Shown piece by piece: positions 271 to 50,467 of a stretch of DNA of 54,809 bases. Numbering within the stretch: the first letter of the stretch is position 1; each line of letters starts with the position of its first letter. The notes beneath the pieces are model-generated. The model was not told the DNA's origin. It searched no databases and saw only the letters and a program-made list of their open reading frames with translations. The translations under genes were made by a program, and so were the position numbers. The stretch is from contig LNGC01000001.1 in the NCBI GenBank assembly GCA_001587715.1, positions 1-54,809 of the forward strand, read 5' to 3'. The stretch is from Candidatus Methanofastidiosum methylothiophilum. GTDB taxonomy: Archaea; Methanobacteriota_B; Thermococci; Methanofastidiosales; Methanofastidiosaceae.

Positions 271-891
271 TTATTCATTCAAATATACACATAATTTCCA
301 GACAGGATTACCAGCGTACTTTTTTAACTGTTTTGCGGTTTCTCGTGGAGTTTCTAGTTTTTGGTAGTGGTGCATGGATAATTTTCCGTTTTCGAGTTCT
401 GTTTTTGGTATTTTAAGCTCTCTTAAACTCTCAATTAATACAAATAGTTCTTTAATTGTTTCTAGTTCTATGAAGTAAGTGTCATAGTCTAAACAGCAAC
501 AGATAAGACTGTTTTTATCATAGTTCACTCTGTTTACCATTTTTAACCAACCTATCTGTTGCCAGGTGTTGGTTAGGTATAAGTAGAATGGTTTGTCTGG
601 TAAATTGAGTATAACTTCTTTTGCTTCTTGTTTTTTAAATTTATGAAACTCTGATTCTGTTATTAGCCACATGCTGCGTCTTAGTTCATTTGATAGTTTG
701 ATTAGTGGTTGGCAGTGTGGGCATATTACTGTTCCTTGGCTGATTTCGACTGCTTTGGTCATGTTTGCTCCGAATTTCTTTTTATATCCTTTTGTGGTTG
801 TTTTTCCACATAAACAGCATACACCTTTTAGTTCCCCGTTTTGGGGCGTGATTTGTTTGTGTTTGCATATTAATTCGCTTAATGTTTCCAT
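271..891 (-). CDS. hypothetical protein with Cys-rich (CCLCG...CPHC) N-terminus
   Basis: ORF track, 206 aa. The ATG is preceded by GAGGTGA 7 nt upstream. It is the first gene downstream of the left copy of the 30-bp TATA-containing repeat. Confidence 0.6.
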   Translation of the reverse strand: METLSELICKHKQITPQNGELKGVCCLCGKTTTKGYKKKFGANMTKAVEISQGTVICPHCQPLIKLSNELRRSMWLITESEFHKFKKQEAKEVILNLPDKPFYLYLTNTWQQIGWLKMVNRVNYDKNSLICCCLDYDTYFIELETIKELFVLIESLRELKIPKTELENGKLSMHHYQKLETPRETAKQLKKYAGNPVWKLCVYLNE

Positions 892-17134: not shown

Positions 17135-18388
17135 CTAATCATGATCTAACATCTTTCCCCTATATTTCTTTAAAGCCTCTCTAACTCCCTTATCAGTCTT
17201 AGCAGCTTCAAACATCCAACTAGTTTTATCTATAATATCCTCAATCTGAGAAAGTTTCTCATCATTCAGATCAGCCCTAGCCTCAGCAGCATTTAATTTA
17301 TTAACTATCTCCCTAACCTCTTCAGATTCAATCCTTTTAACTTTAACTTTCTCCAGGGTTATCTCAGGTAAAGCTTTAAGATACTGCTCTTTTAAATCCT
17401 CAGGGTTACTTCTAAAATAGGCTGCATTTTGATCATTTATTTTATGTCCTAAGAAAAAATCAATCTTTAATCTATCTACCCCTTTTTTAAATAGGGTAGA
17501 GCTAAACAGCTCTCTTAATTGATGAGAGGTTATAAAATGTCTGTTATTTTCTGCTCTCCTCTCAAACCCTACTTTTTCATTTAATCTAAGAAAAATTAGA
17601 GAGTATGGGTTAGGTCTAAGAAATTTATTATATTGATTTACAAATAAGAAATCTGAATTAGATCTGATCTGTTTGTTCTCCCTATTCCTATGTATCAAAT
17701 ATTGGATTATTGCTCTGGTACTTTCAGGACTGTTAAATGTAGTAAAATAATAACCTGTTTTATATCTATGAATACTCCAACAACCTATAAGATCCTCATC
17801 CTCTCTACTTTCCAGGATCTCTACAGTTTCCTCTATATCTACTCTCCTTTTTACTGGTAAGTTTTGGCTTTTTAGGAAATCAGAATAAGTAAGATGAGAT
17901 ACCTCACTTAATCCCATGCCTGAGCTGAGATGTAAAAGTATTAGAGCTTTATCCCTAATACCTGCCCTAAATACTAACCGTTTAACATCCTCCAAAGTGG
18001 GTAACTCACTAATCCCCCTCTGTATTACTTCATCCTTATTAGGCTTAGTACTGATTTTAGGAGGTATTATTATCTCATTATCTCCATAAAAGGCTTTTAC
18101 ACTTATCACATAAGACCTTACTGTATTTATGCTTTTACCTCTCTTTTTTAGGTCTTTTATGTAACTATTGAAGTACTTTTTTATTTTCCTATGTTTAATT
18201 TTAACATTGTTATCCTGCTCCTCCTCAGCCTCTTCTATTAATGCAGTAGGGAGTTTCTGGATATAATTACAGTAGTCTTTTAAGGCTGTAATATGGAATC
18301 TTTTAGTATTTTCTGCTATATTGCGATCTAAAAAATCCTCTACTAAGGCATCATTATTTATATCCTCTAAGGTATATTCCATAGTCAT
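17135..18388 (-). CDS. int: tyrosine recombinase / integrase
   Basis: 417 aa. The N-terminus looks like a SAM-like core-binding domain. The C-terminal box II reads HQLRELFSSTL...LGHK...AAYF (H-x-x-R, G-H, Y). There is no SD before the ATG. Confidence 0.85.
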   Translation of the reverse strand: MTMEYTLEDINNDALVEDFLDRNIAENTKRFHITALKDYCNYIQKLPTALIEEAEEEQDNNVKIKHRKIKKYFNSYIKDLKKRGKSINTVRSYVISVKAFYGDNEIIIPPKISTKPNKDEVIQRGISELPTLEDVKRLVFRAGIRDKALILLHLSSGMGLSEVSHLTYSDFLKSQNLPVKRRVDIEETVEILESREDEDLIGCWSIHRYKTGYYFTTFNSPESTRAIIQYLIHRNRENKQIRSNSDFLFVNQYNKFLRPNPYSLIFLRLNEKVGFERRAENNRHFITSHQLRELFSSTLFKKGVDRLKIDFFLGHKINDQNAAYFRSNPEDLKEQYLKALPEITLEKVKVKRIESEEVREIVNKLNAAEARADLNDEKLSQIEDIIDKTSWMFEAAKTDKGVREALKKYRGKMLDHD

Positions 18389-18963: not shown

Positions 18964-18995
18964 ACTCCCTATAGGTTCTTATAGGGAGTTTTTTT
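18964..18995 (+). terminator. perfect 10-bp hairpin (ACTCCCTATA-ggttct-TATAGGGAGT) followed by a T-run, on the plus strand
   Basis: Read directly. Its orientation is opposite to all surrounding genes. Confidence 0.4.
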
Positions 18996-19212: not shown

Positions 19213-20094
19213 CTACCTCCTACCTATAAGACTTAAAAACAGATCTTTTAACTTATCTAAAAAGCTTTTATTTTCAGCTACAACAGCAGCCATATAAGCA
19301 TTTTTGAGGAGAACCCAAAAATCAGAGGCTAATCCTGTACTAAAATACCTGTAATCTATCCAGCCATATCCTTTATTTCCCCATGATTCCCCCCATGAGT
19401 TACGGATCATAAAAGCTCCTTTACCATCATTTATGTTATAGTTATCATCATATCCAACTATAACCATAGCATGACCCCCTATAGATTGATCAGAAGGCTT
19501 AGGATAAGGAATATCAGGGCTGTTAATACAGTACCCTTGATCATTCAGGATATTATTATACAAATTAGTTCCAAAATTAACAGGATAACCCTGAGCTATA
19601 AACTGCTTAATCTGGTTTAAGCTGGTAAGCCTAGTATAAGTAACAGCCTTATAGATTAAGGCATCAGTAAAAGCTTTCTCTGGAGGTGTATCATCAAACT
19701 TTTTAACATCATAAGGATACTCCTCCTCTGGAGGGGTACCATACTTACCTAAAGCTTTAATAGTATCCCTTATACTAGCTCCAGTATCCCCATTAACCCC
19801 CATTATATACCTTCTAGTTACATAATAAAGGAACAGCCTAGAAGCTATTACATAAGGCTTTTTACTAAAATTTTTCTCATTAAACTGTAAAGTAGCACAT
19901 TGACTATTAGCAGTACAGGATCCCAGATCTCCCTGATCCATAATAGGAGTATCTTTACTAGTTAAATCTACCTTGGAGGGTAGTTTACTCACTTTTATTG
20001 CCTTGTAAAACTCTTTTACCTGCTCATGTTTTACAGTATAATCTCTTTCATCATATTTATCCTCTAACCATCCAAAATTAAACTTATTCTCCAT
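19213..20094 (-). CDS. papain-family (C1-like) cysteine peptidase, candidate lysis enzyme
   Basis: All catalytic signatures are present: QGDLGSCTANS (Gln/Cys), GGHAMVIVGYD (His), IRNSWGESWGNKGYGWI (Asn-Ser-Trp). It is the last gene of the late operon. Confidence 0.85.
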   Translation of the reverse strand: MENKFNFGWLEDKYDERDYTVKHEQVKEFYKAIKVSKLPSKVDLTSKDTPIMDQGDLGSCTANSQCATLQFNEKNFSKKPYVIASRLFLYYVTRRYIMGVNGDTGASIRDTIKALGKYGTPPEEEYPYDVKKFDDTPPEKAFTDALIYKAVTYTRLTSLNQIKQFIAQGYPVNFGTNLYNNILNDQGYCINSPDIPYPKPSDQSIGGHAMVIVGYDDNYNINDGKGAFMIRNSWGESWGNKGYGWIDYRYFSTGLASDFWVLLKNAYMAAVVAENKSFLDKLKDLFLSLIGRR

Positions 20095-20113
20095 CTATAG
20101 CCACCTCTAAATT

Positions 20114-20362
20114 TTATCCATCAGTATTACCAGTAGGTTTACCTCTCCAGCAGCTTCTAAAAATATTAGATTCATCTAAAGAAACTGCCTCAGTTCTCCC
20201 AATAATCCTAAGATTATTATACCTATTTGAGGGTAAAACCTGCTCTACATAAATCTCCTCTAAAATATTACCTGGAACTAAACCAGAAAGTCTTAATATT
20301 TGATTAAGAGTAATATCATCAAATCTCCAATGATACTTCTCTCCATTAATTACTACATTCAT
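20114..20362 (-). CDS. hypothetical protein (82 aa)
   Basis: ORF track. I moved the start to ATG 20362, after GGGGAGTAAGTG. Confidence 0.5.
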   Translation of the reverse strand: MNVVINGEKYHWRFDDITLNQILRLSGLVPGNILEEIYVEQVLPSNRYNNLRIIGRTEAVSLDESNIFRSCWRGKPTGNTDG

Positions 20363-20365
20363 CAC

Positions 20366-21925
20366 TTACTCCCCTATGATCATTAGTGAGGGGGAGCTGA
20401 TTAAGCTAGTAGCTATTTTCATATCAGTATAGGATACTGTTTTTACATTTCTATCAGGATCTGCTATGGTTACAGTCTGATTTTTTACATTAACTCCCAC
20501 TATTACTATATAGTGTCCAAAGCTGCCAGAGTATCCTGGGAAGTTCCAGCCAAAATTAGTTTTAAATGTATGAGCTGAGATATTATTTACTCCTGAAAAT
20601 AGAGCAGCAGATAAACCCTGATCTCCAGTCATAATATTAACAATAGCCCTTTTACCAGCCCTGATATAATTTGCTATTCCCTGGAGTCCTGTACCTGCAA
20701 AACTAATAAACTCAGATTTTAACTTTTTACCAAACTTACTATTTAACCATGGAGTTACTTTTAACATCCCTGCATGACCTGTACCAGCATAACTCATACT
20801 AGTACCAGCTACTTTAGCTATAACCATCTCAGCAGAGTAAGGATCATTTAAATCAGCCTGTTCACTACCTAACATATACATATCATAGGTGCTGCAAACA
20901 ATCAGCCAACTAGTAGGACCACATATATAATCATTCTGCTGGAAAAAATAATTAAAAGGAGGGATCCTTACATAATCAGAGTTATTCTCTGCTACTGGTT
21001 TAGAGTCTATATAGTTAGGTTCTCTACTAAATCCTTTTTTAAAGGCATCCCATCTCTTTTTTATCTCATCATACTTAGCCTTAGTGAAATACTGATTAGT
21101 TTTAACCAGGCTTACCCTAAGATACACCTTGGAGGGTGTACCTTTATAGTTCTCTACAGCAGTTATCATAGCCTTAAAATCAGCCTTTTGGATTCTAACA
21201 TTTTCTTTATCTATACATACCCCATCCATATTACCACTCCCTACAGCCCATTTTACCATACTTACTAACAGATCTGGATCCTGAGGAGTTAATTCTGGAT
21301 GAGGACCCCCTAATATAACTCTACCTTTACCATGGGTATCTCCAGCTATAGCTCCATACATATAGTTATCAGTTACTTTAGGATCATTGTAGATAGCAAA
21401 GATAATAACTGAGCTACCCTCTGGAGATAAAAAACCAGGTCCATTATAATGAGCCATTTTCTGTACTCCTCCAGATTTTCCTAACTGTAAACATTCAGGT
21501 CTTACCATCAAAATATTTATAGCATCCTCAGAATCATCTAAACCTTTACATTCTATAGTTCCTACCCCTATACCATCATAAACCTTATTAATCTTATTAC
21601 CATCCTTATCTATGTTCCAAACACTTTTAGAAAGATAGTAAGCTCCAGCACATATACCAGATACTGATCCTCCCTCCTTTACATACTGCCTAATCCCTGC
21701 TGAATAAGGAGCTAAAACTTTAAGGTATTTATTACCCCCATCACCTCCAGGAATATTAAAATGATCATACTTCTTTAAATTCCCATAAGTAGGAGGGATT
21801 AAAGATTTACCACTATTAGGATCATTGGTATAATCTACATCCATCCCTGCATTCTTTAGAATAGTATAGGTATTTTTAGGACCATTTATAGCACTAGCTA
21901 CCCCATTATAAATTAAAACCTTCAT
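20366..21925 (-). CDS. two-domain protein: N-terminal class-I glutamine-amidotransferase-like fold and C-terminal C39-like (papain-fold) cysteine peptidase
   Basis: N-terminus: MKVLIYNG...FNIPGG...GGSVSGICAGAYYLS, a GATase1/BPL_N-like nucleophile elbow. C-terminus: QQNDYICGPTSWLIV ... FGHYIVIVGVN..VTIADPD, matching the Q..CGPTS / GHY..v.G / DP pattern of C39-like peptidases. Confidence 0.6.
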   Translation of the reverse strand: MKVLIYNGVASAINGPKNTYTILKNAGMDVDYTNDPNSGKSLIPPTYGNLKKYDHFNIPGGDGGNKYLKVLAPYSAGIRQYVKEGGSVSGICAGAYYLSKSVWNIDKDGNKINKVYDGIGVGTIECKGLDDSEDAINILMVRPECLQLGKSGGVQKMAHYNGPGFLSPEGSSVIIFAIYNDPKVTDNYMYGAIAGDTHGKGRVILGGPHPELTPQDPDLLVSMVKWAVGSGNMDGVCIDKENVRIQKADFKAMITAVENYKGTPSKVYLRVSLVKTNQYFTKAKYDEIKKRWDAFKKGFSREPNYIDSKPVAENNSDYVRIPPFNYFFQQNDYICGPTSWLIVCSTYDMYMLGSEQADLNDPYSAEMVIAKVAGTSMSYAGTGHAGMLKVTPWLNSKFGKKLKSEFISFAGTGLQGIANYIRAGKRAIVNIMTGDQGLSAALFSGVNNISAHTFKTNFGWNFPGYSGSFGHYIVIVGVNVKNQTVTIADPDRNVKTVSYTDMKIATSLISSPSLMIIGE

Positions 21926-21945
21926 CTATAGCCACCCCTATTTTT

Positions 21946-36270: not shown

Positions 36271-36344
36271 AGCCTATGACCGGATTTGAACCGGCATTTA
36301 GTGAGTCTGCAACCCACCGCCTAACCAGGCTAAGCTACATAGGC
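36271..36344 (-). tRNA. tRNA-Cys: tRNA-Cys (anticodon GCA)
   Basis: Hand-folded cloverleaf of the minus-strand sequence GCCTATG-TA-GCTT-AGCCTGGTT-AGGC-G-GTGGG-TTGCAGA-CTCAC-TAAAT-GCCGG-TTCAAAT-CCGGT-CATAGGC-T. The 7-bp acceptor stem is perfect. The discriminator is U73, the CysRS identity element. No CCA is encoded and a T-run follows. Confidence 0.85.
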
Positions 36345-38493: not shown

Positions 38494-41352
38494 TTAATCT
38501 ATTATCCTAAAAATAATCTTAGATTGTTTTATTTTAGATTTAACAGTATTATAGAATATTTTATATTTTATTGATGATTGTTTGAAAGTTATATTACATA
38601 ATATCTCCTTAAAATTAATGATATAAGTTAAAATAACTGATGTATAACTAGTACCTGTAATAGTAGCAGCTAATAACATAATCCTAGATAATCTGCCAGT
38701 AACATTAACTACTCCAGTAATTACTCCTTTTAATAAGGTGATGTATATCATATTTGCAGTTAAACTAGAATCAGCCTCTACTCTCCCCTGGAGTCCTCTT
38801 ATACCCTGTAACATCCCCATAATTGAGCTGATACCTGAAACTTCTGAAAGGAATAACATCCATTTACTCAATTCTCCAGTAACTGTACTTTCTCCTGTAG
38901 TTTCAGAATCTAAATTAACATTCCTACTTATTTCTCCAGTACTATTAGCTGCTGTTACTATATTAGAATTTAATTTAAGACCTCTACTTAAATCTCCTGT
39001 ACTATTACCTACTACTTGAATATTAGAATTTAATTTAGTCAATCTTTCCAGGATCCCAGAGCTAAAACTACCTCCTGTACTCTCTGAGAGGATCCTGATT
39101 ACCCTGGATAAACTAGCAGAATTAGATCCTACTCCTCCCATGGAAGACTCCATTTCTAGGATTCTACTAATAGATCCTACTATACTACTTGAACAGGTAA
39201 CAGCAGCAGCTATAGATCTAACTCTTTTTAGATCTCCAGAGATTGTACTCTGAGCAGATATAACTCCTACTATTCCCTGAGTAACTGCTGATGGTGTTAC
39301 AGTTAATGAGGTTGATAAGGAGGCTGCTGCGGCTATGCTACCATCTAAATATTTTAAAAAGAATAAATAAGGATAACCCTTATTATGATTGTTATTTTCA
39401 ATAACCCATATAGGGGTATTAAAATCCCAGTTAGTATAGGTATTTTGATCTTTCATTTGAGCAGTAGTTTTACCAGTACCTAAAGCACTATTAGCCTGGT
39501 TACTAGTTTGAGTATCCCAGAAACAATCAGTAGCAGTACCTGTATTTATACTCCCTACTAATCCCCCTACATTATTATTACCAGCTACAGCCCCCATACT
39601 ATAAGAGTTAGTTATGGTTTTAGAGTCTTGCCTTCCTACTAATCCCCCTGTATGACCATAACCATTAACATCCATTCTACTATAACAATTAGTTATTTTA
39701 GCCATACAGATACCAGCTATCCCTCCTGCATAGTTAGGAGTACCTGATACTGTTAAAGTTCCTATTGATAAACTGTTTTTTATCTCAGAGCTAGTATTAC
39801 TCCAAGTAGCAGATCCAGCTATCCCTCCAACATAATTAACTCCAGAGATAGCTCCATGGTAAAGGCACTGATCAATAGTTAAAAGTAAATTATAATCATA
39901 AGTACCCCCTAACATACCTCCTACTCTATCTCCAGTACCTGATATATCACCTAATACTAAACATCTGTTTATACTAGAAGTACTATTCCTAAGGTATCCT
40001 ATCATGCCTCCTATGCTCCCTCTGCCTGATACATTACCTCTCTGCATACAATCAGATATAGCAGCATTATAAGCATATCCTATAATCCCCCCTAAATTAT
40101 CTCTCCCTGATATTGATTTGGTACTTATACATTTAGAAATAGTTAAAGCATAAGCTGAGGCTACAGGCTGCCCTCCTATTATCCCCCCTACACTATCTGA
40201 GGTACTGGAGGCTGTTATACTTATATTTTTATTATTTAATCCTGCTACTGTACCCCCATTAAGCACTCCTCCTATGAATCCTCCTATATTATTACCTGTA
40301 CCTACTACAGATCCTGAGACTGTAGCTGTTCCAAAAGTTACACCTGATCCATAACCCCAAACTCCAGCTATACCCCCTATATTAGTTCTCCCTGTAACAG
40401 TTCCAGTATAACTAACAGAGCTAAAAGTAGTTATTCCAGTATAACCTATAATCCCCCCTACCCCATCTCTGCCTGTTATATTAATCGCTACAGATCCATT
40501 ATTTATAGCTGAGGTATAGGCTGTACTTTCATTTTTACCTACTACCCCTCCTATATTATCCGAGGTACTAGATACACTGATAGATAAAGTATTAGATATG
40601 TCAAAACCAGTTATAGTAACTCCATAAGTTATAATACCTACAGCTCCTCCTATTTGGCTTCCTGTGGCTGATATAGTACCTTCAATTGTGAAAGATTGTA
40701 GAGTTACCTGAGGATACCCATATCTACCAAATATCCCCCCTATATAATTAGCTCCTGTTATATCTGCATTTACTGAACATCCTAAGCTATTCACTTTCTG
40801 GCAGTATCCAGCTATCCCTCCAATATAATCAGTACCAGATAAATCTGCTGTATTGGTACAATTGTTTATAGCTCCAGATCCTCCTGTAGCTTCATAAGCA
40901 CCTATTACTCCTCCAAGATAAGATGAGTTAGCTTTTATACTACCTGTAACTAAGAGGCTTGAGAATACTACCCCTCCTGTTGAACATCTCCCCACTACCC
41001 CCCCCACATAACTTTTACCGGTTATGTTTACATCTGTTAAATTTAAATTAGTTATACCTACAGTAACATATCCAAACAATCCCACATTATCAGTAGTAGG
41101 TCTGTTTATATACAATCCAGAGATTTCATATCCATCTCCATTAAATCCTCCAGTAAATTTAGTAGTAGCCTCCCCTCTAGGCAGCCATCCAGCACCCCCA
41201 TTATAATTAGCATCCTGAGTAGGAGAGGCATCAATATCAGCACCTAATTTATAATACTTATCTAAAGTATAGGGTGCTGATCCTAATAATTCTAGATCAC
41301 TAAATGAACTAAGAACATATGGATCAGCCTGAGTACCACTACCACTAACCAA
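38494..41352 (-). CDS. adhesin-like protein with about 18 GLUG-type repeats and a C-terminal periodic repeat region
   Basis: 952 aa, TTG start after GAGGTGGCTATAA. The N-terminus GSGTQADPYVLSSFSDLELL is typical of GLUG-domain proteins. The motif [IVL]GG[IVLM][IVA]G recurs about 18 times. The C-terminal ~215 aa form ~20-aa units G-x-[LI]-S-R-x. Confidence 0.8.
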   Translation of the reverse strand: MVSGSGTQADPYVLSSFSDLELLGSAPYTLDKYYKLGADIDASPTQDANYNGGAGWLPRGEATTKFTGGFNGDGYEISGLYINRPTTDNVGLFGYVTVGITNLNLTDVNITGKSYVGGVVGRCSTGGVVFSSLLVTGSIKANSSYLGGVIGAYEATGGSGAINNCTNTADLSGTDYIGGIAGYCQKVNSLGCSVNADITGANYIGGIFGRYGYPQVTLQSFTIEGTISATGSQIGGAVGIITYGVTITGFDISNTLSISVSSTSDNIGGVVGKNESTAYTSAINNGSVAINITGRDGVGGIIGYTGITTFSSVSYTGTVTGRTNIGGIAGVWGYGSGVTFGTATVSGSVVGTGNNIGGFIGGVLNGGTVAGLNNKNISITASSTSDSVGGIIGGQPVASAYALTISKCISTKSISGRDNLGGIIGYAYNAAISDCMQRGNVSGRGSIGGMIGYLRNSTSSINRCLVLGDISGTGDRVGGMLGGTYDYNLLLTIDQCLYHGAISGVNYVGGIAGSATWSNTSSEIKNSLSIGTLTVSGTPNYAGGIAGICMAKITNCYSRMDVNGYGHTGGLVGRQDSKTITNSYSMGAVAGNNNVGGLVGSINTGTATDCFWDTQTSNQANSALGTGKTTAQMKDQNTYTNWDFNTPIWVIENNNHNKGYPYLFFLKYLDGSIAAAASLSTSLTVTPSAVTQGIVGVISAQSTISGDLKRVRSIAAAVTCSSSIVGSISRILEMESSMGGVGSNSASLSRVIRILSESTGGSFSSGILERLTKLNSNIQVVGNSTGDLSRGLKLNSNIVTAANSTGEISRNVNLDSETTGESTVTGELSKWMLFLSEVSGISSIMGMLQGIRGLQGRVEADSSLTANMIYITLLKGVITGVVNVTGRLSRIMLLAATITGTSYTSVILTYIINFKEILCNITFKQSSIKYKIFYNTVKSKIKQSKIIFRIID

Positions 41353-43120: not shown

Positions 43121-44809
43121 TTACCCTTTTAAAGGTCTGCCCATACCATCCCTGCCAATCCTCTCCATAAAGGATTTATTAGCAGGTTTCTTTTTACTAG
43201 AACCCTCCGGCTCTTTTAAACCGTTGCTATCTACAGGTTCCCCTAGTTTTTCTTTAATAGATGCTAGTTCTCCCTCTAGTTTTTCTACTTTTTTCTCTGA
43301 GGTTTCTAGTTTTTTCTCTAGTTCTTTAGTAGCTGCTGGTTTAGGTTTAGGATCTGATTTAGTAGAGTTATCTGTAGGCTCTGTTTTAGTAGGTTCTCCA
43401 TCAGGCTCTGATTTAGTAGATTCATCAGGATCTACATCTTTTAGAACCTGGGCTTTAATAGCATCTATCCCCTCAGTTAAAGGTTTTAGTTTCTCATCTA
43501 ACCTCTTATCCACTTTCTCATTAAACTCATTCTCATCCATTTTATCTACCTCCATTAAAAATTTATCTACTACTGTAGGAGTAGTAGGATCTTTCCTCTC
43601 CTCAGTAGCTCTATTTAATAATTTATTTAAGTCATCTAAGCCTTTACTGATTTTCTCTTTAATGTTCTGTATCTGAGTAAAAGTAGTATCACTAAAGCTC
43701 CTACCTACCTTACTAGCAGCTTTAATACTGGTAGCTATGGCATTAGGAACACATGGATTATCCACTAAAGCTATACTTACAGCTACTGGATCATCTAACT
43801 CATTAATTAAAACTCTCTTATCAGCACCAACTAACTCACATATCTTAATAGCTCTCTTATCAGCACTAAGAAGCTTTAACAATTCATCAGCATCTTTCCT
43901 ACTAAGGTAAGATCCACTAGCTCCAGTAAGTGTACCCTCCTCTACCTGCTGCCAGGTAGCATCATCAGTAACTTTAATAGTAGTCATCCAGGTACCCCTA
44001 GGGAGGGTTACAGTTTCCCCTTTAACATTAGTAACAGTTTCATCAGCTTTAGTAGTCCAGTTCTCTACAGATTCACCAACTATATCCCCTGTACTGTTTA
44101 ATATGTGCATTTTATCAGCTAACCGGAAGTTAGCATTATACTCTCTACAGAATTTAGCCACTTCATCCTCTGTAAATATTTTCTCTCCCCTGTTAAAATC
44201 ACAATCAGCACAGCCAGGGAGCATAACCGGGGTAGTAACCTCTCTCTTTACTTCATCCTTAGTAACAAACCCCATTTTCACAGCTTCAAAGGTTTTAACC
44301 TCTACTACTGGAGTAGGTTCTCCTAAGATAACATTCCCATCACTATCCATGGTATAGGGAAAGTTAAATAAAGCTCTGCTATACTCATAAGTTACAGGAT
44401 CCTCAGTTCCTACTGATGCAATGACATGATCAGGATAAGTAGCCTGGATATAAACATACTGATTAACACCTAACATAGAGTTAATAGCATTCTTTATTTT
44501 AGATTTTAACTCCTCATAACTACCATCAGCCTCAGCATACTTAACAGCCTCATAACTAGTAACCTCTTTAACCTCTACAGCCTCCCCTAACTCCAAACCT
44601 TTCTCAGAATTAGTAAAAGGTACCTTAAAATTTTTAGCAGTATTGAAATCATATATTATAGATTCTCCTGCTGTTACTGGTGCCTCTGGTATTATATCCT
44701 GTACCCATATATCACTATTACCTACCTGATTCTCCCTGATCTGAGAATCAATCTGATCCATTAGTTCATTGAAACTCCCAGGTACAGCAGCTTTTTTACT
44801 ACCTTTCAA
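43121..44809 (-). CDS. XkdF-like putative prohead protease fused to a coiled-coil scaffold-like C-terminus
   Basis: 562 aa, TTG start after GGAGGT. The central TTPVMLPGCADCDFNRGEKIFTEDEVAKFCREYNANFRLADKMH resembles the XkdF/S78_2 pattern. The C-terminal 150 aa are Lys/Glu-rich coiled coil. Confidence 0.55.
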   Translation of the reverse strand: MKGSKKAAVPGSFNELMDQIDSQIRENQVGNSDIWVQDIIPEAPVTAGESIIYDFNTAKNFKVPFTNSEKGLELGEAVEVKEVTSYEAVKYAEADGSYEELKSKIKNAINSMLGVNQYVYIQATYPDHVIASVGTEDPVTYEYSRALFNFPYTMDSDGNVILGEPTPVVEVKTFEAVKMGFVTKDEVKREVTTPVMLPGCADCDFNRGEKIFTEDEVAKFCREYNANFRLADKMHILNSTGDIVGESVENWTTKADETVTNVKGETVTLPRGTWMTTIKVTDDATWQQVEEGTLTGASGSYLSRKDADELLKLLSADKRAIKICELVGADKRVLINELDDPVAVSIALVDNPCVPNAIATSIKAASKVGRSFSDTTFTQIQNIKEKISKGLDDLNKLLNRATEERKDPTTPTVVDKFLMEVDKMDENEFNEKVDKRLDEKLKPLTEGIDAIKAQVLKDVDPDESTKSEPDGEPTKTEPTDNSTKSDPKPKPAATKELEKKLETSEKKVEKLEGELASIKEKLGEPVDSNGLKEPEGSSKKKPANKSFMERIGRDGMGRPLKG

Positions 44810-49462: not shown

Positions 49463-49570
49463 TTATTTGATATAGAGATAGATCTCATGGATTAATCCTA
49501 GTAAGATTATGAGCAGGATACAATCAATTAAAATAAATAGTATTGTTAGGCTCCAGCCTATAGCATCCAT
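49463..49570 (-). CDS. small membrane peptide (35 aa)
   Basis: Hand translation MDAIGWSLTILFILIDCILLIILLGLIHEIYLYIK*. Canonical GAGGTGGCTATTATG start. Confidence 0.35.
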   Translation of the reverse strand: MDAIGWSLTILFILIDCILLIILLGLIHEIYLYIK

Positions 49571-49581
49571 AATAGCCACCT

Positions 49582-50022
49582 CTAAATAAATGTTGTATAA
49601 ACTTTAATTGCCTCTATAAATATTGTGAATACTGCTCCCATGGCAGCACCTATAAGAATTAATTTAATACTATCTTTAAGCTCTCTCTTTTTTTGGTTTA
49701 AACCTAAGGCTCCTTTTATTTCAGCTATTTCTACCATGACCTCAGTTAATAGCTGTCTTATACTTTTATCCTCAGCCTCAGCCTTCTCCCCAATCTCATG
49801 AGCTTTAGCCCTAATCTCCTGTAATTGCTTATCCCTCTCCCCATTCTCCTTACTTTTAACTCCAAGAGCATCCTTAACTATTTCTAACTCCTCTGTTAAA
49901 AATGTGAATAAATTACTCCCTTTTTTTAACTCTCCCTTAATTCCTTTAACAGATCTACTTAACTTTAAAAAATCCTTCTCATGAATACAGTTACTATTAT
50001 TACAATCCCCATCCCCCTCCAT
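49582..50022 (-). CDS. coiled-coil protein with a C-terminal TM anchor
   Basis: ORF track, 146 aa. It ends LILIGAAMGAVFTIFIEAIKVYTTFI. Canonical start. Confidence 0.5.
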   Translation of the reverse strand: MEGDGDCNNSNCIHEKDFLKLSRSVKGIKGELKKGSNLFTFLTEELEIVKDALGVKSKENGERDKQLQEIRAKAHEIGEKAEAEDKSIRQLLTEVMVEIAEIKGALGLNQKKRELKDSIKLILIGAAMGAVFTIFIEAIKVYTTFI

Positions 50023-50056
50023 ACTATAGCCACCTCTTTATTTAAAAAAAATTAGT

Positions 50057-50467
50057 TTAAGGGTTAGATTTTATAACCCTTTCTCTAACTATTCTCTTTG
50101 CTATCTGTACTCTCTGCTCTGTAGTAATCTGATATAGTACAGCAAATACTAGAACTGCTATAGGAACATAAACAGCAGGTATAGCACCCATTATAACAGC
50201 CTGGTATAGTATCACTATAGGAGCTACAGCATATACCACATTCAAGATCCAGGTAACATAACCTAACCTTTTAATAGTTTCAACTGCCTCAGTAACTCTC
50301 TTATCACTAGCATACTTACTCAGTATAGCCAGGAATAGCTGTACTGCTATTAACAGCTCTGGGCTGTAATCATTAACATAACCTAAAATCACTACCTGGA
50401 AAAACAAAATAACAGGTATTAAAGCTAACAATATTGTAGTAATCCAATCAAAAAATTTAAGATTCAT
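50057..50467 (-). CDS. 4-TM membrane protein (holin-like candidate)
   Basis: ORF track, 136 aa with four hydrophobic spans. GGGAGGT SD. It is the first gene after a 436-bp non-coding region. Confidence 0.55.
   Translation of the reverse strand: MNLKFFDWITTILLALIPVILFFQVVILGYVNDYSPELLIAVQLFLAILSKYASDKRVTEAVETIKRLGYVTWILNVVYAVAPIVILYQAVIMGAIPAVYVPIAVLVFAVLYQITTEQRVQIAKRIVRERVIKSNP

What the first reader, a model, noticed from the sequence alone, without database searches (positions are those of the whole stretch)
19213..21925. Late operon ends with two papain-fold cysteine peptidases and no muramidase or amidase: candidate non-canonical lysis cassette
The last three late genes have three products. 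The first is a 519-aa fusion of a glutamine-amidotransferase-like domain (GICAGAYY elbow) with a C39-like peptidase (Q..CGPTS / GHYIVIVG / DPD). The second is an 83-aa protein. The third is a 293-aa protein with every papain C1 signature (QGDLGSC, GGHAMVIVGY, NSWGESWG). I see no lysozyme, amidase, LysM, or SH3 domain. I also see nothing resembling, as far as I can recall them, the pseudomurein endoisopeptidases of Methanothermobacter viruses. If the host wall is peptide-cross-linked, as pseudomurein is, these could be a different enzymatic route to lysis. The GATase-like domain, as either a wall-binding or a deamidating partner, would be new for a lysin.
Basis: partly seen in the sequence, partly recalled or inferred. 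Interest (0 to 1): 0.7.

Follow-up and report, generated by a model that had tools for sequence, protein, structure and literature searches.

The report
Three-part pseudomurein lysin of a methanogen virus
The "odd" lysis genes of this archaeal virus are mostly a known kind of enzyme (a PeiR-type cutter of the methanogen cell wall), but it carries an extra, apparently active glutaminase-like domain that recurs in wall-bound methanogen proteins and may be a second, undescribed wall-cutting activity.

Summary
The three ORFs and all quoted motifs are real. The C-terminal 280 residues of the 519-aa protein are a PeiR-family pseudomurein endoisopeptidase: two pseudomurein-binding repeats plus a C39-type Gln/Cys/His/Asp peptidase. 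They match the PeiR crystal structure (profile E=1.6e-12; best Foldseek hit) and ORF27 of Methanothermobacter virus PhiF3.

The N-terminal domain appears undescribed in a lysin. It has a class-I glutaminase fold with invariant Cys92/His209/Glu211. The same domain plus pseudomurein-binding repeats recurs fused to C39, C71 or transglutaminase-like peptidases. It also occurs in many secreted, wall-anchored Methanobacterium proteins. I infer a second wall-active catalytic domain, possibly cleaving γ-glutamyl isopeptide bonds; this is untested.

The 293-aa protein is an intact xylellain-like C1 peptidase from a very large, mostly cellular family. It has no wall-binding module, and its pairing with the lysin is not conserved, so its lysis role is only positional. 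The 83-aa gene is an ORFan. Verdict: a new variant of a known kind.

The parts
20366..21925 (-). 519-aa three-part lysin gene: GATase-like domain, 2 PMBR-like repeats, C39 (PeiR-type) peptidase
   Evidence: ORF. Pfam BPL_N and Peptidase_C39_2 above threshold. AF2 model with mean pLDDT 82. Full-length relatives P0002, P0003, P0125, P0126 and P0129.
21242..21925 (-). N-terminal class-I glutaminase-like domain (residues 1-228): PGG oxyanion motif (G60, G61), Cys92 (21650-21652), His209 (21299-21301), Glu211 (21293-21295)
   Evidence: Pfam BPL_N E=3e-17. Foldseek matches Pdx2/YaaE and HisH with TM 0.75-0.82 normalised to the target. C92/H209/E211 are invariant in 13 sequences of 25-49% identity. 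Codons verified.
21113..21196 (-). PMBR-like repeat 1 (residues ~244-271, RIQKADFKAMITAVENYKGTPSKVYLRV)
   Evidence: BLASTP to the PeiW repeat region. Covered by the profile alignment to PeiR residues 15 onward. Helix-strand unit in the model. Weaker than repeat 2.
21005..21091 (-). PMBR-like repeat 2 (residues ~279-307, ...KYDEIKKRWDAFKKGFSREPNYID)
   Evidence: A PMBR mini-profile hits only this ORF in the six-frame window, E=2e-7. BLASTP to PeiW repeats. The profile also hits the PMBR region of 8Z4F, E=1.8e-5.
20369..20980 (-). C39-type (PeiR-like) cysteine peptidase domain (residues 316-519): Gln329/330, Cys335 (20921-20923), His471-Tyr472 (20510-20515), Asp489 (20459-20461)
   Evidence: Pfam Peptidase_C39_2. 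tblastn to PhiF3 ORF27. Profile hit to PeiR 8Z4H, E=1.6e-12. Best Foldseek PDB hit is PeiR. Residues are invariant in A1/A2.
20114..20365 (-). 83-aa ORFan, start codon abutting the lysin stop codon
   Evidence: ORF. Only itself among 5.8 billion clusters. Only a sub-threshold Multi_ubiq hit, E=0.03. No TM segment.
19213..20094 (-). 293-aa xylellain-like papain-family (C1A) peptidase: N-terminal GW..D..D.RDY segment, Gln54/Cys60/His208/Asn232, and a C-terminal helix (residues 265-291; 19216-19302 includes the tail)
   Evidence: Pfam Peptidase_C1, 58.3 bits. PDB 3OIS, E=3.7e-44. Catalytic residues invariant in 23 homologs. AF2 mean pLDDT 89.5 with helix 265-291.
17135..18388 (-). Tyrosine integrase that bounds the cassette (context, not part of lysis)
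   Evidence: Pfam Phage_integrase. 36% identity to the psiM100 integrase.

Best explanation
The window is a temperate tailed archaeal virus of a pseudomurein-walled methanogen, probably Methanobacterium or a relative. Its late operon ends with a three-part endolysin.

Shown by homology: residues ~240-519 are a PeiR-family pseudomurein endoisopeptidase. Two pseudomurein-binding repeats dock the enzyme on the wall. A C39-type clan-CA cysteine peptidase (Gln329/330, Cys335, His471, Asp489) cuts the stem-peptide isopeptide bond. PeiR does this on Glu-gamma-Ala/Thr-pNA substrates, which mimic the Ala/Thr-epsilon-Lys bond.

Inferred: the N-terminal 228 residues are a second catalytic module. They have a class-I glutaminase fold with an intact oxyanion PGG, Cys92 nucleophile elbow and His209-Pro-Glu211. 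This chemistry forms a gamma-glutamyl thioester. The most economical target is therefore one of the gamma-glutamyl isopeptide bonds of pseudomurein (Glu-gamma-Ala, or the gamma-Glu-epsilon-Lys cross-link). The architecture would then be catalytic domain, binding domain, catalytic domain, hitting two different bonds.

The protein has no signal peptide, so it needs membrane disruption to reach the wall. No holin lies next to it. The only membrane-protein genes are about 28 kb away, at 49.5-50.5 kb.

The downstream 83-aa ORFan and the active C1A papain-like peptidase are co-transcribed accessory genes. Their role in lysis is possible but unproven.

My sub-probabilities:
- 519-aa protein is a PeiR-type pseudomurein lysin: 0.85.
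- GATase-like domain is catalytically active on the wall: 0.5.
- It is specifically a gamma-glutamyl isopeptidase: 0.3.
- C1 peptidase takes part in lysis: 0.3.
For: PeiR relationship:
- tblastn hit to PhiF3 ORF27, 'putative pseudomurein endoisopeptidase'. That protein is itself PMBR + C39_2.
- A profile of the C-terminal region matches PeiR 8Z4H over residues 15-203, E=1.6e-12, and the PMBR region of 8Z4F.
- PeiR is the best Foldseek PDB hit.
- The PMBR mini-profile hits only this ORF in the window.
- Gln/Cys/His/Asp and the His-Tyr pair are conserved.
- PeiR's lytic activity and 2 PMBR + C39 architecture are published (PMC6189367, PMC13642728). PeiR-like C39 endolysins are already noted in Methanobrevibacter viruses (PMC11375127).

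Position:
- The gene lies at the end of the tail module here, in L005 and in L104.
- The prohead protease is a separate XkdF-type gene.

GATase-like domain:
- Pfam BPL_N and a glutaminase fold with TM ~0.8.
- The triad is invariant across 13 divergent sequences.
- Among the 150 best cluster representatives, my own profiles classify 7 as fused via PMBR to C39 and 13 as fused to C71-like domains. About a dozen have PMBR only.
- Pfam confirmed Peptidase_C71 in 2 of these and Transglut_core in 3; the others sampled had no Pfam assignment at the C-terminus.
- The closest 59 genomic relatives are all Methanobacteriaceae. Most carry an N-terminal extension and a C-terminal region beyond the GATase-like domain, and my small PMBR profile hits that region in a minority. 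About half of the 12 read in full show a clear N-terminal signal peptide. All 12 keep GICAGAY/HPE, and almost all are followed by several PMBR-type repeats.
- Pseudomurein contains gamma- and epsilon-isopeptide bonds, and gamma-Glu-epsilon-Lys is thought to be the main cross-link (PMC4592898).
Against: - There is no biochemical evidence for any of these proteins.
- The GATase-like domain does not match Pfam Peptidase_C26 or any characterised peptidase family. Its nearest structures are glutaminase subunits that act on free glutamine.
- BPL_N domains have no established activity.
- Repeat 1 of the PMBR pair is weakly supported, and Pfam's own PMBR model does not reach E<0.1 on this protein.
- PeiR's substrate-recognition His162 aligns to Asn430 here, so specificity may differ.
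- No holin was identified near the lysin.
- Host assignment is indirect. No CRISPR spacer or att-site evidence was obtained.
Confidence: 0.7

Rival explanations
1. One reading: a non-canonical lysis cassette in which two papain-fold peptidases (C39-like and C1) together provide a wall-degrading route unrelated to known pseudomurein endoisopeptidases.
For: Both peptidases have intact catalytic residues and are co-transcribed at the end of the late operon. A C1 domain occurs in one predicted multidomain phage endolysin, Alicyclobacillus phage MMB025, which is C1 + Rv2525c-like glycosidase + PG_binding_1.
Against: The C39 half is homologous to PeiR, including its PMBR repeats, so it is a known route. 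The C1 peptidase has no PMBR or other binding module. It belongs to a family of more than 4000 clusters, mostly cellular standalone proteins. It is absent next to the homologous lysin in L005.
Confidence: 0.08
2. The C1 peptidase is a genuine auxiliary lysis factor. For example, it might trim pseudomurein peptides at ordinary alpha-peptide bonds or digest surface proteins, with its C-terminal amphipathic helix bringing it to the membrane. The 83-aa protein might act as its regulator.
For: It is tightly packed in the same transcription unit as the lysin and has the same strong ribosome-binding site. It has a virus-specific C-terminal helix at residues 265-291 that most cellular homologs lack, with a moderate hydrophobic moment of 0.35. 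The order C1, small ORF, integrase is conserved in a related provirus fragment, L011, at 94% identity.
Against: Other tail-bearing relatives (P0009, P0096) lie among small ORFans and nucleotide-metabolism genes of large virus-like contigs, not beside lysins. The gene sits in the classic position between lysis genes and integrase where temperate viruses carry cargo genes. There is no binding domain and no signal peptide. The 83-aa protein has no homolog at all.
Confidence: 0.3
3. The GATase-like domain is not a wall hydrolase. It might be a non-catalytic docking or regulatory module, or a glutaminase/deamidase acting on a small molecule or on a Gln side chain.
For: The nearest structures are glutaminase subunits. 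BPL_N domains have no known activity. There is no hit to the gamma-glutamyl hydrolase family C26.
Against: The full Cys/His/Glu triad and the PGG motif are invariant across viral and cellular members at 25-49% identity. A purely structural module would not be expected to keep them. The domain consistently co-occurs with PMBR in proteins whose N-termini, where read, often look like signal peptides. This places its substrate at the wall, outside the cell, where free glutamine metabolism makes little sense.
Confidence: 0.3
4. The 519-aa protein is a virion-associated enzyme that opens the wall during entry, rather than an endolysin for exit.
For: It directly follows tail and baseplate genes, and it has no signal peptide and no adjacent holin.
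Against: It has no structural tail domain. It carries a dedicated binding module, as soluble endolysins such as PeiW, PeiP and PeiR do. It occupies the same last-gene-before-integrase position as peiW in psiM100.
Confidence: 0.12

Closest known systems
PeiR, pseudomurein endoisopeptidase of Methanobrevibacter ruminantium provirus phi-mru (PDB 8Z4H; PMC6189367)
   Same: Two divergent PMBR repeats followed by a C39-type clan-CA peptidase with Gln/Cys/His and the His-Tyr pair. Profile E=1.6e-12 over nearly the whole of PeiR, and it is the best structural match. Cytoplasmic, with no signal peptide.
   Different: About 20% identity. The window protein has an extra 230-aa N-terminal glutaminase-like domain. 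PeiR's His162 aligns to Asn430. There are insertions at residues 353-360 and 439-457, which are low-confidence loops in the model.
ORF27 of Methanobacterium virus PhiF3 (host Methanothermobacter), annotated as a putative pseudomurein endoisopeptidase
   Same: Closest database relative of the C-terminal half: 25-26% identity and E=4e-20 against the window. PMBR + C39_2 architecture. Located after the tail genes.
   Different: 242 aa, with no GATase-like domain. Its PMBR repeats are much closer to those of PeiW, at 41% identity.
PeiW / PeiP (MEROPS C71) of psiM100 / psiM2
   Same: Same job, same host wall and same type of binding repeat. Only the PMBR region aligns. Same gene position next to the integrase or att site.
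   Different: The catalytic domain is transglutaminase-like C71, not C39. There is no C71 in the window. They have four PMBR repeats, not two.
Endolysins of Gram-positive phages with two catalytic domains around a central binding domain (e.g. the streptococcal lambdaSa2 lysin: endopeptidase, Cpl-7 repeats, glucosaminidase). From my own knowledge, not tested here.
   Same: Layout of catalytic domain, binding repeats, catalytic domain.
   Different: Different folds, different wall polymer and a bacterial host. Here the second catalytic activity is only inferred.
Class-I glutaminase domains (Pdx2/YaaE, HisH) and related hydrolases of the same fold (gamma-glutamyl hydrolase C26, PfpI C56, dipeptidase E S51). 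The latter group is from my own knowledge.
   Same: Fold (TM ~0.8), nucleophile-elbow Cys, His-x-Glu and PGG oxyanion motif. C26 enzymes use this triad to cut gamma-glutamyl amide bonds.
   Different: No synthase partner. No Pfam match to C26. The domain is extracellular and wall-tethered through PMBR.
Xylellain of Xylella fastidiosa (PDB 3OIS) and the prokaryotic ~280-aa C1A peptidase family
   Same: The 293-aa protein aligns over residues 4-262, E=3.7e-44. It has the same N-terminal segment and catalytic Gln/Cys/His/Asn.
   Different: A virus-specific C-terminal helix and no 'PPGT' insertion. The physiological role of the family is unknown.

Membership tests
PeiR-type pseudomurein endoisopeptidase (PMBR + C39) | C39-type clan-CA catalytic domain with oxyanion Gln, Cys and His (PeiR Q84, C90, H181) | tested here: met
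   Gln329/330, Cys335 and His471 (plus Asp489) align to PeiR and are invariant in relatives. Pfam Peptidase_C39_2 scores 32.5 bits against a threshold of 24.
PeiR-type pseudomurein endoisopeptidase (PMBR + C39) | Two pseudomurein-binding repeats N-terminal to the catalytic domain | tested here: met
   Repeat 2 is strong: mini-profile E=2e-7, unique in the window. Repeat 1 is weaker. Pfam's PMBR model itself is below E=0.1. The same was reported for PeiR, at E=0.11 (PMC6189367).
PeiR-type pseudomurein endoisopeptidase (PMBR + C39) | Substrate-recognition residues His162 and Tyr182 of PeiR | tested here: inconclusive
   The Tyr is kept (Tyr472). The position of His162 is Asn430 in the window, P0002 and P0003, but His in PhiF3, P0125, P0126 and P0129.
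PeiR-type pseudomurein endoisopeptidase (PMBR + C39) | Lysis of pseudomurein-walled cells and cleavage of Glu-gamma-Ala/Thr-pNA | not testable with these tools
   Needs recombinant enzyme.
PeiW/PeiP family (MEROPS C71) | Peptidase_C71 (transglutaminase-like) catalytic domain | tested here: not met
   No Pfam C71 hit. BLASTP aligns only the PMBR region. tblastn of PeiW finds no catalytic-domain match in the window.
Class-I glutamine-amidotransferase-like superfamily (Pfam BPL_N) | Fold, plus nucleophile-elbow Cys, His-x-Glu and oxyanion Gly-Gly | tested here: met
   BPL_N scores 62.8 bits against a threshold of 24.2. Foldseek TM is 0.75-0.82 to Pdx2 and HisH. C92, H209, E211, G60 and G61 are invariant.
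True glutamine amidotransferase | Partner synthase domain or subunit that receives ammonia | tested here: not met
   The domain is fused to PMBR and a peptidase, and in cells to PMBR repeats, often behind a signal-peptide-like N-terminus. No synthase domain is present.
Gamma-glutamyl hydrolase (MEROPS C26) | Match to the family profile | tested here: not met
   No Peptidase_C26 hit at E<0.1 in Pfam or NCBIfam. The shared chemistry is an analogy only.
Papain family C1A (xylellain-like) | Gln/Cys/His/Asn catalytic set and family profile | tested here: met
   Peptidase_C1 scores 58.3 bits against a threshold of 20.7. 3OIS E=3.7e-44. Q54, C60, H208 and N232 are invariant.
Canonical holin-endolysin cassette | Small membrane protein encoded next to the lysin | tested here: not met
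   No TM-containing ORF between 18.8 and 25 kb, apart from a doubtful overlapping 43-aa frame. Membrane proteins occur only at 49.5-50.5 kb.
Prohead maturation protease | Protease gene between the portal and capsid genes | tested here: not met
   That slot is filled by an XkdF-type S78 protease at 43121-44809. Both cysteine peptidases lie after the tail genes.

The most novel reading that the evidence does not exclude
The BPL_N-type glutaminase-like domain is a previously unrecognised family of pseudomurein-active enzymes. It would be a Cys-His-Glu gamma-glutamyl isopeptidase, or in cells possibly a remodelling or transpeptidase-type enzyme. Methanobacterium would secrete it in several wall-anchored paralogs. 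Its viruses would have repeatedly fused it to PeiR-, PeiW- and transglutaminase-type peptidases, giving the first archaeal endolysins with two catalytic domains.
Probability: 0.35. Interest if true: 0.75.

Novelty: new variant of a known kind. Interest (0 to 1): 0.55.

Why it matters
Only three pseudomurein lysins (PeiP, PeiW, PeiR) have been characterised. They are the main enzymatic tools for opening methanogen cells, and they are being developed as anti-methanogen agents for ruminant methane mitigation (PMC6189367, PMC8963448).

A recurring extra catalytic-looking domain tied to pseudomurein-binding repeats, in both viruses and hosts, points to a testable new wall-active activity. The enzymes that remodel or cross-link pseudomurein are largely unknown. 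A Cys-His-Glu enzyme aimed at gamma-glutamyl bonds would add a new cleavage specificity for lysin engineering. It would also give a handle on pseudomurein turnover.

The finding also corrects a likely annotation trap: C39_2-type proteins in methanogen viruses are Pei-type lysins, not bacteriocin-processing peptidases.

Tried and rejected
- Megablast of the 15-kb late region against GenBank phages found nothing.
- phmmer of the single 519-aa sequence against PDB found only marginal Pdx2 hits and missed PeiR. The relationship appeared only with a four-sequence profile.
- A scan of IMG/VR with the fusion alignment found no relatives.
- The 13-sequence alignment was too divergent for a genome scan. 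A four-sequence GATase alignment worked.
- PHROGs and NCBIfam added almost nothing.
- The 83-aa protein has no homolog. Its Multi_ubiq hit (E=0.03, below threshold) was not pursued and should not be relied on.
- I looked for compositional signs of recent acquisition of the three genes. GC and GC3 are like those of the neighbours.
- I considered that the identical 14-nt start regions of the two peptidase genes mark a duplicated module. They are simply the genome-wide ribosome-binding-site consensus.
- Sigma-70 promoter and terminator scans are uninformative for an archaeal virus.
- Context look-ups for P0125, P0128 and P0158 returned contigs too short to judge.
- The Medvedeva et al. 2023 compendium of methanogen viruses could not be read. 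I cannot exclude that it mentions such fusions.


Full report
**Observation**

- 20366-21925, 519 aa.
- 20114-20365, 83 aa. Its GTG start abuts the previous stop codon.
- 19213-20094, 293 aa, 19 nt further on.

They are followed by a 372-nt gap, a 58-aa ORF and a tyrosine integrase. All quoted motifs are present.

Pfam supports the domain calls above its curated cut-offs. In the 519-aa protein these are BPL_N (a class-I-amidotransferase-like family, residues 1-215) and Peptidase_C39_2 (residues 324-490). In the 293-aa protein it is Peptidase_C1.

**What the element is**

The window is a tailed archaeal virus related to Methanothermobacter prophage psiM100. Integrase, capsid, portal, terminase and tail proteins are 30-38% identical. 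The layout is a standard late operon: terminase, portal, XkdF-type prohead protease, capsid, tape measure, tail. Because the prohead protease slot is filled, neither cysteine peptidase is a maturation protease.

**The 519-aa protein contains a known lysin**

- tblastn against GenBank phages gave one hit: ORF27 of Methanobacterium virus PhiF3 (host Methanothermobacter), annotated as a putative pseudomurein endoisopeptidase. That protein is itself PMBR-like repeats plus Peptidase_C39_2, not C71.
- BLASTP against PeiW aligned only residues 242-310 of the window protein, and aligned them to PeiW's pseudomurein-binding repeats.
- A mini-profile of PeiW and PhiF3 repeats hit only this ORF in the six-frame window (E=2e-7). 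tblastn with PeiW found no C71 catalytic domain anywhere.
- The literature shows a third, experimentally validated lysin type. PeiR of the M. ruminantium provirus phi-mru has two very divergent PMBR repeats plus a C39 peptidase. It lyses several methanogens and cleaves Glu-gamma-Thr/Ala-pNA (PMC6189367, PMC13642728). PeiR-like C39 endolysins are already recognised in animal-gut Methanobrevibacter viruses (PMC11375127).
- A profile of the C-terminal 280 residues plus relatives matches the PeiR crystal structure 8Z4H across residues 15-203 (E=1.6e-12). It also matches the PMBR region of 8Z4F.
- PeiR is the best Foldseek hit of the AF2 model, which has mean pLDDT 82.
- Catalytic Gln329/330, Cys335, His471 and Asp489, and PeiR's Tyr182 equivalent, are conserved. 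PeiR's His162 equivalent is Asn430.

**The N-terminal domain is the interesting part**

Full-length relatives are rare. The word-indexed search found two, and the exhaustive profile search found a few more.

That exhaustive search also showed that the GATase-like + PMBR module is combinatorial. My own profiles classify the 150 best 50%-identity cluster representatives as follows:
- 7 are GATase-like, PMBR, C39.
- 13 are GATase-like, PMBR, C71-like.
- About a dozen are GATase-like plus PMBR in either order, with no peptidase.

Pfam's own models support this on a sample. Two have Peptidase_C71 (P0127, P0131). Three have Transglut_core at 45-66 bits (P0158, P0160, P0188). PMBR scores reach 135 bits (P0147). 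The other C-termini sampled had no Pfam assignment.

Across 13 such sequences (25-49% identity), Cys92, His209, Glu211 and the PGG motif are invariant. The fold superposes on the class-I glutaminases Pdx2/YaaE and HisH, with TM 0.75-0.82.

A scan of species-representative genomes found 391 relatives. The best 59 are all Methanobacteriaceae or Methanobacterium MAGs, often with several paralogs per genome. Most of these ORFs have an N-terminal extension, the GATase-like domain and a further C-terminal region, and my small PMBR profile hits that region in a minority. I read 12 in full. About half show a clear N-terminal signal peptide followed by an S/T/N-rich linker. All 12 keep GICAGAY and HPE, and almost all are followed by several PMBR-type repeats.

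Three fusion genes with enough context sit at the end of a tail module: the window, L005 and L104. I found no paper that links PMBR with an amidotransferase or BPL_N domain. The Medvedeva 2023 compendium was not readable.

**Mechanism**

Shown by homology: PMBR-mediated docking and C39-type cleavage of the stem-peptide isopeptide bond, as in PeiR.

Inferred: the glutaminase-like domain is a second catalytic module. This fold's chemistry goes through a gamma-glutamyl thioester. Pseudomurein is built with gamma- and epsilon-isopeptide bonds, including a presumed gamma-Glu-epsilon-Lys cross-link (PMC4592898). A gamma-glutamyl isopeptidase is therefore the most economical guess.

This is an analogy, not a membership claim. 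There is no match to the C26 family.

The protein lacks a signal peptide, and no holin is adjacent. The only membrane-protein genes are at 49.5-50.5 kb.

**The other two genes**

The 293-aa protein is an intact C1A peptidase. It matches xylellain 3OIS at E=3.7e-44, and Gln54, Cys60, His208 and Asn232 are invariant.

Its family has more than 4000 clusters, mostly about 280-aa standalone proteins. The few named sources are bacteria and Methanobacterium paludis, and several further members lie on long contigs. In M. paludis the gene lies among sugar-nucleotide and glycosyltransferase genes.

A virus-specific C-terminal helix (residues 265-291) is shared with P0004, P0009 and P0096. P0009 and P0096 sit among ORFans and nucleotide-metabolism genes of virus-like contigs, not beside lysins. 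L005, which has the homologous lysin, has no C1 gene. One phage, Alicyclobacillus MMB025, has a C1 domain inside a predicted multidomain endolysin, so a lytic role is not absurd. Here, however, it rests on position alone.

The 83-aa gene is an ORFan.

**Verdict**

The core of the cassette is a known PeiR-type pseudomurein lysin. The apparently new and testable element is the conserved glutaminase-like domain tied to pseudomurein-binding repeats in both viruses and hosts.

I rate this a new variant of a known kind, of moderate interest.

Noticed in passing
window 49463-50467 (- strand): Three membrane-protein ORFs just upstream of the terminase genes: 38 aa with 1 TM, 146 aa with a coiled coil plus C-terminal TM, and 136 aa with 3-4 TM. 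They are the only holin-like candidates in the window and lie about 28 kb from the lysin.
   Followed up: partly
window 36271-36344 (- strand): A tRNA-Cys (GCA) gene embedded in the late structural region.
   Followed up: no
window 38494-41352 (- strand): A 952-aa ORF between the capsid and tail genes with no Pfam family, only a sub-threshold GLUG motif.
   Followed up: no
window 18964-18989: A palindrome with an 11-bp stem, flanked by T/A runs, in the 372-nt gap between the C1 peptidase gene and the 58-aa and integrase genes. It could be a terminator or part of the attachment site.
   Followed up: no
window 271-891 (- strand); L005 16569-17066: This 206-aa ORF is 72% identical to a gene of the distantly related 60-kb contig L005. 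That gene carries a weak Csf1 hit and lies near a Csf3-hit gene, which may indicate type IV CRISPR-Cas-like components in these viruses.
   Followed up: no
window, 14 sites including 20092-20105 and 21923-21936: GGTGGCT-N4-ATG is a genome-wide ribosome-binding-site consensus: 14 sites within 2 mismatches, against 0.56 expected. Only the two peptidase genes carry the exact 14-mer.
   Followed up: yes
L015-L073 (Methanobacteriaceae genomes), e.g. L028 7695-9101, L065 496-2475: A multi-paralog family of cellular proteins in which the GATase-like domain (Cys/His/Glu intact) is followed by PMBR-type repeats. About half of the 12 read in full have a clear N-terminal signal peptide. I found no description of it, and it may act in pseudomurein turnover.
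   Followed up: partly
protein P0136 (database hit, 533 aa): Another modular pseudomurein lysin type: 2 PMBR repeats, a TIM-barrel-like insert and a C39 peptidase.
   Followed up: no
PDB 22oc ('P210 CD lyase', released 2026): An unexplained solved structure that matches the C39 domain profile (E=3.7e-9) and the model. It may be another methanogen-virus lysin catalytic domain.
   Followed up: no
L012/L013 961-2914: The 55%-identical C1 peptidase homolog P0005 is followed directly by a GH18 (chitinase-like) gene on a short contig of unknown origin.
   Followed up: no
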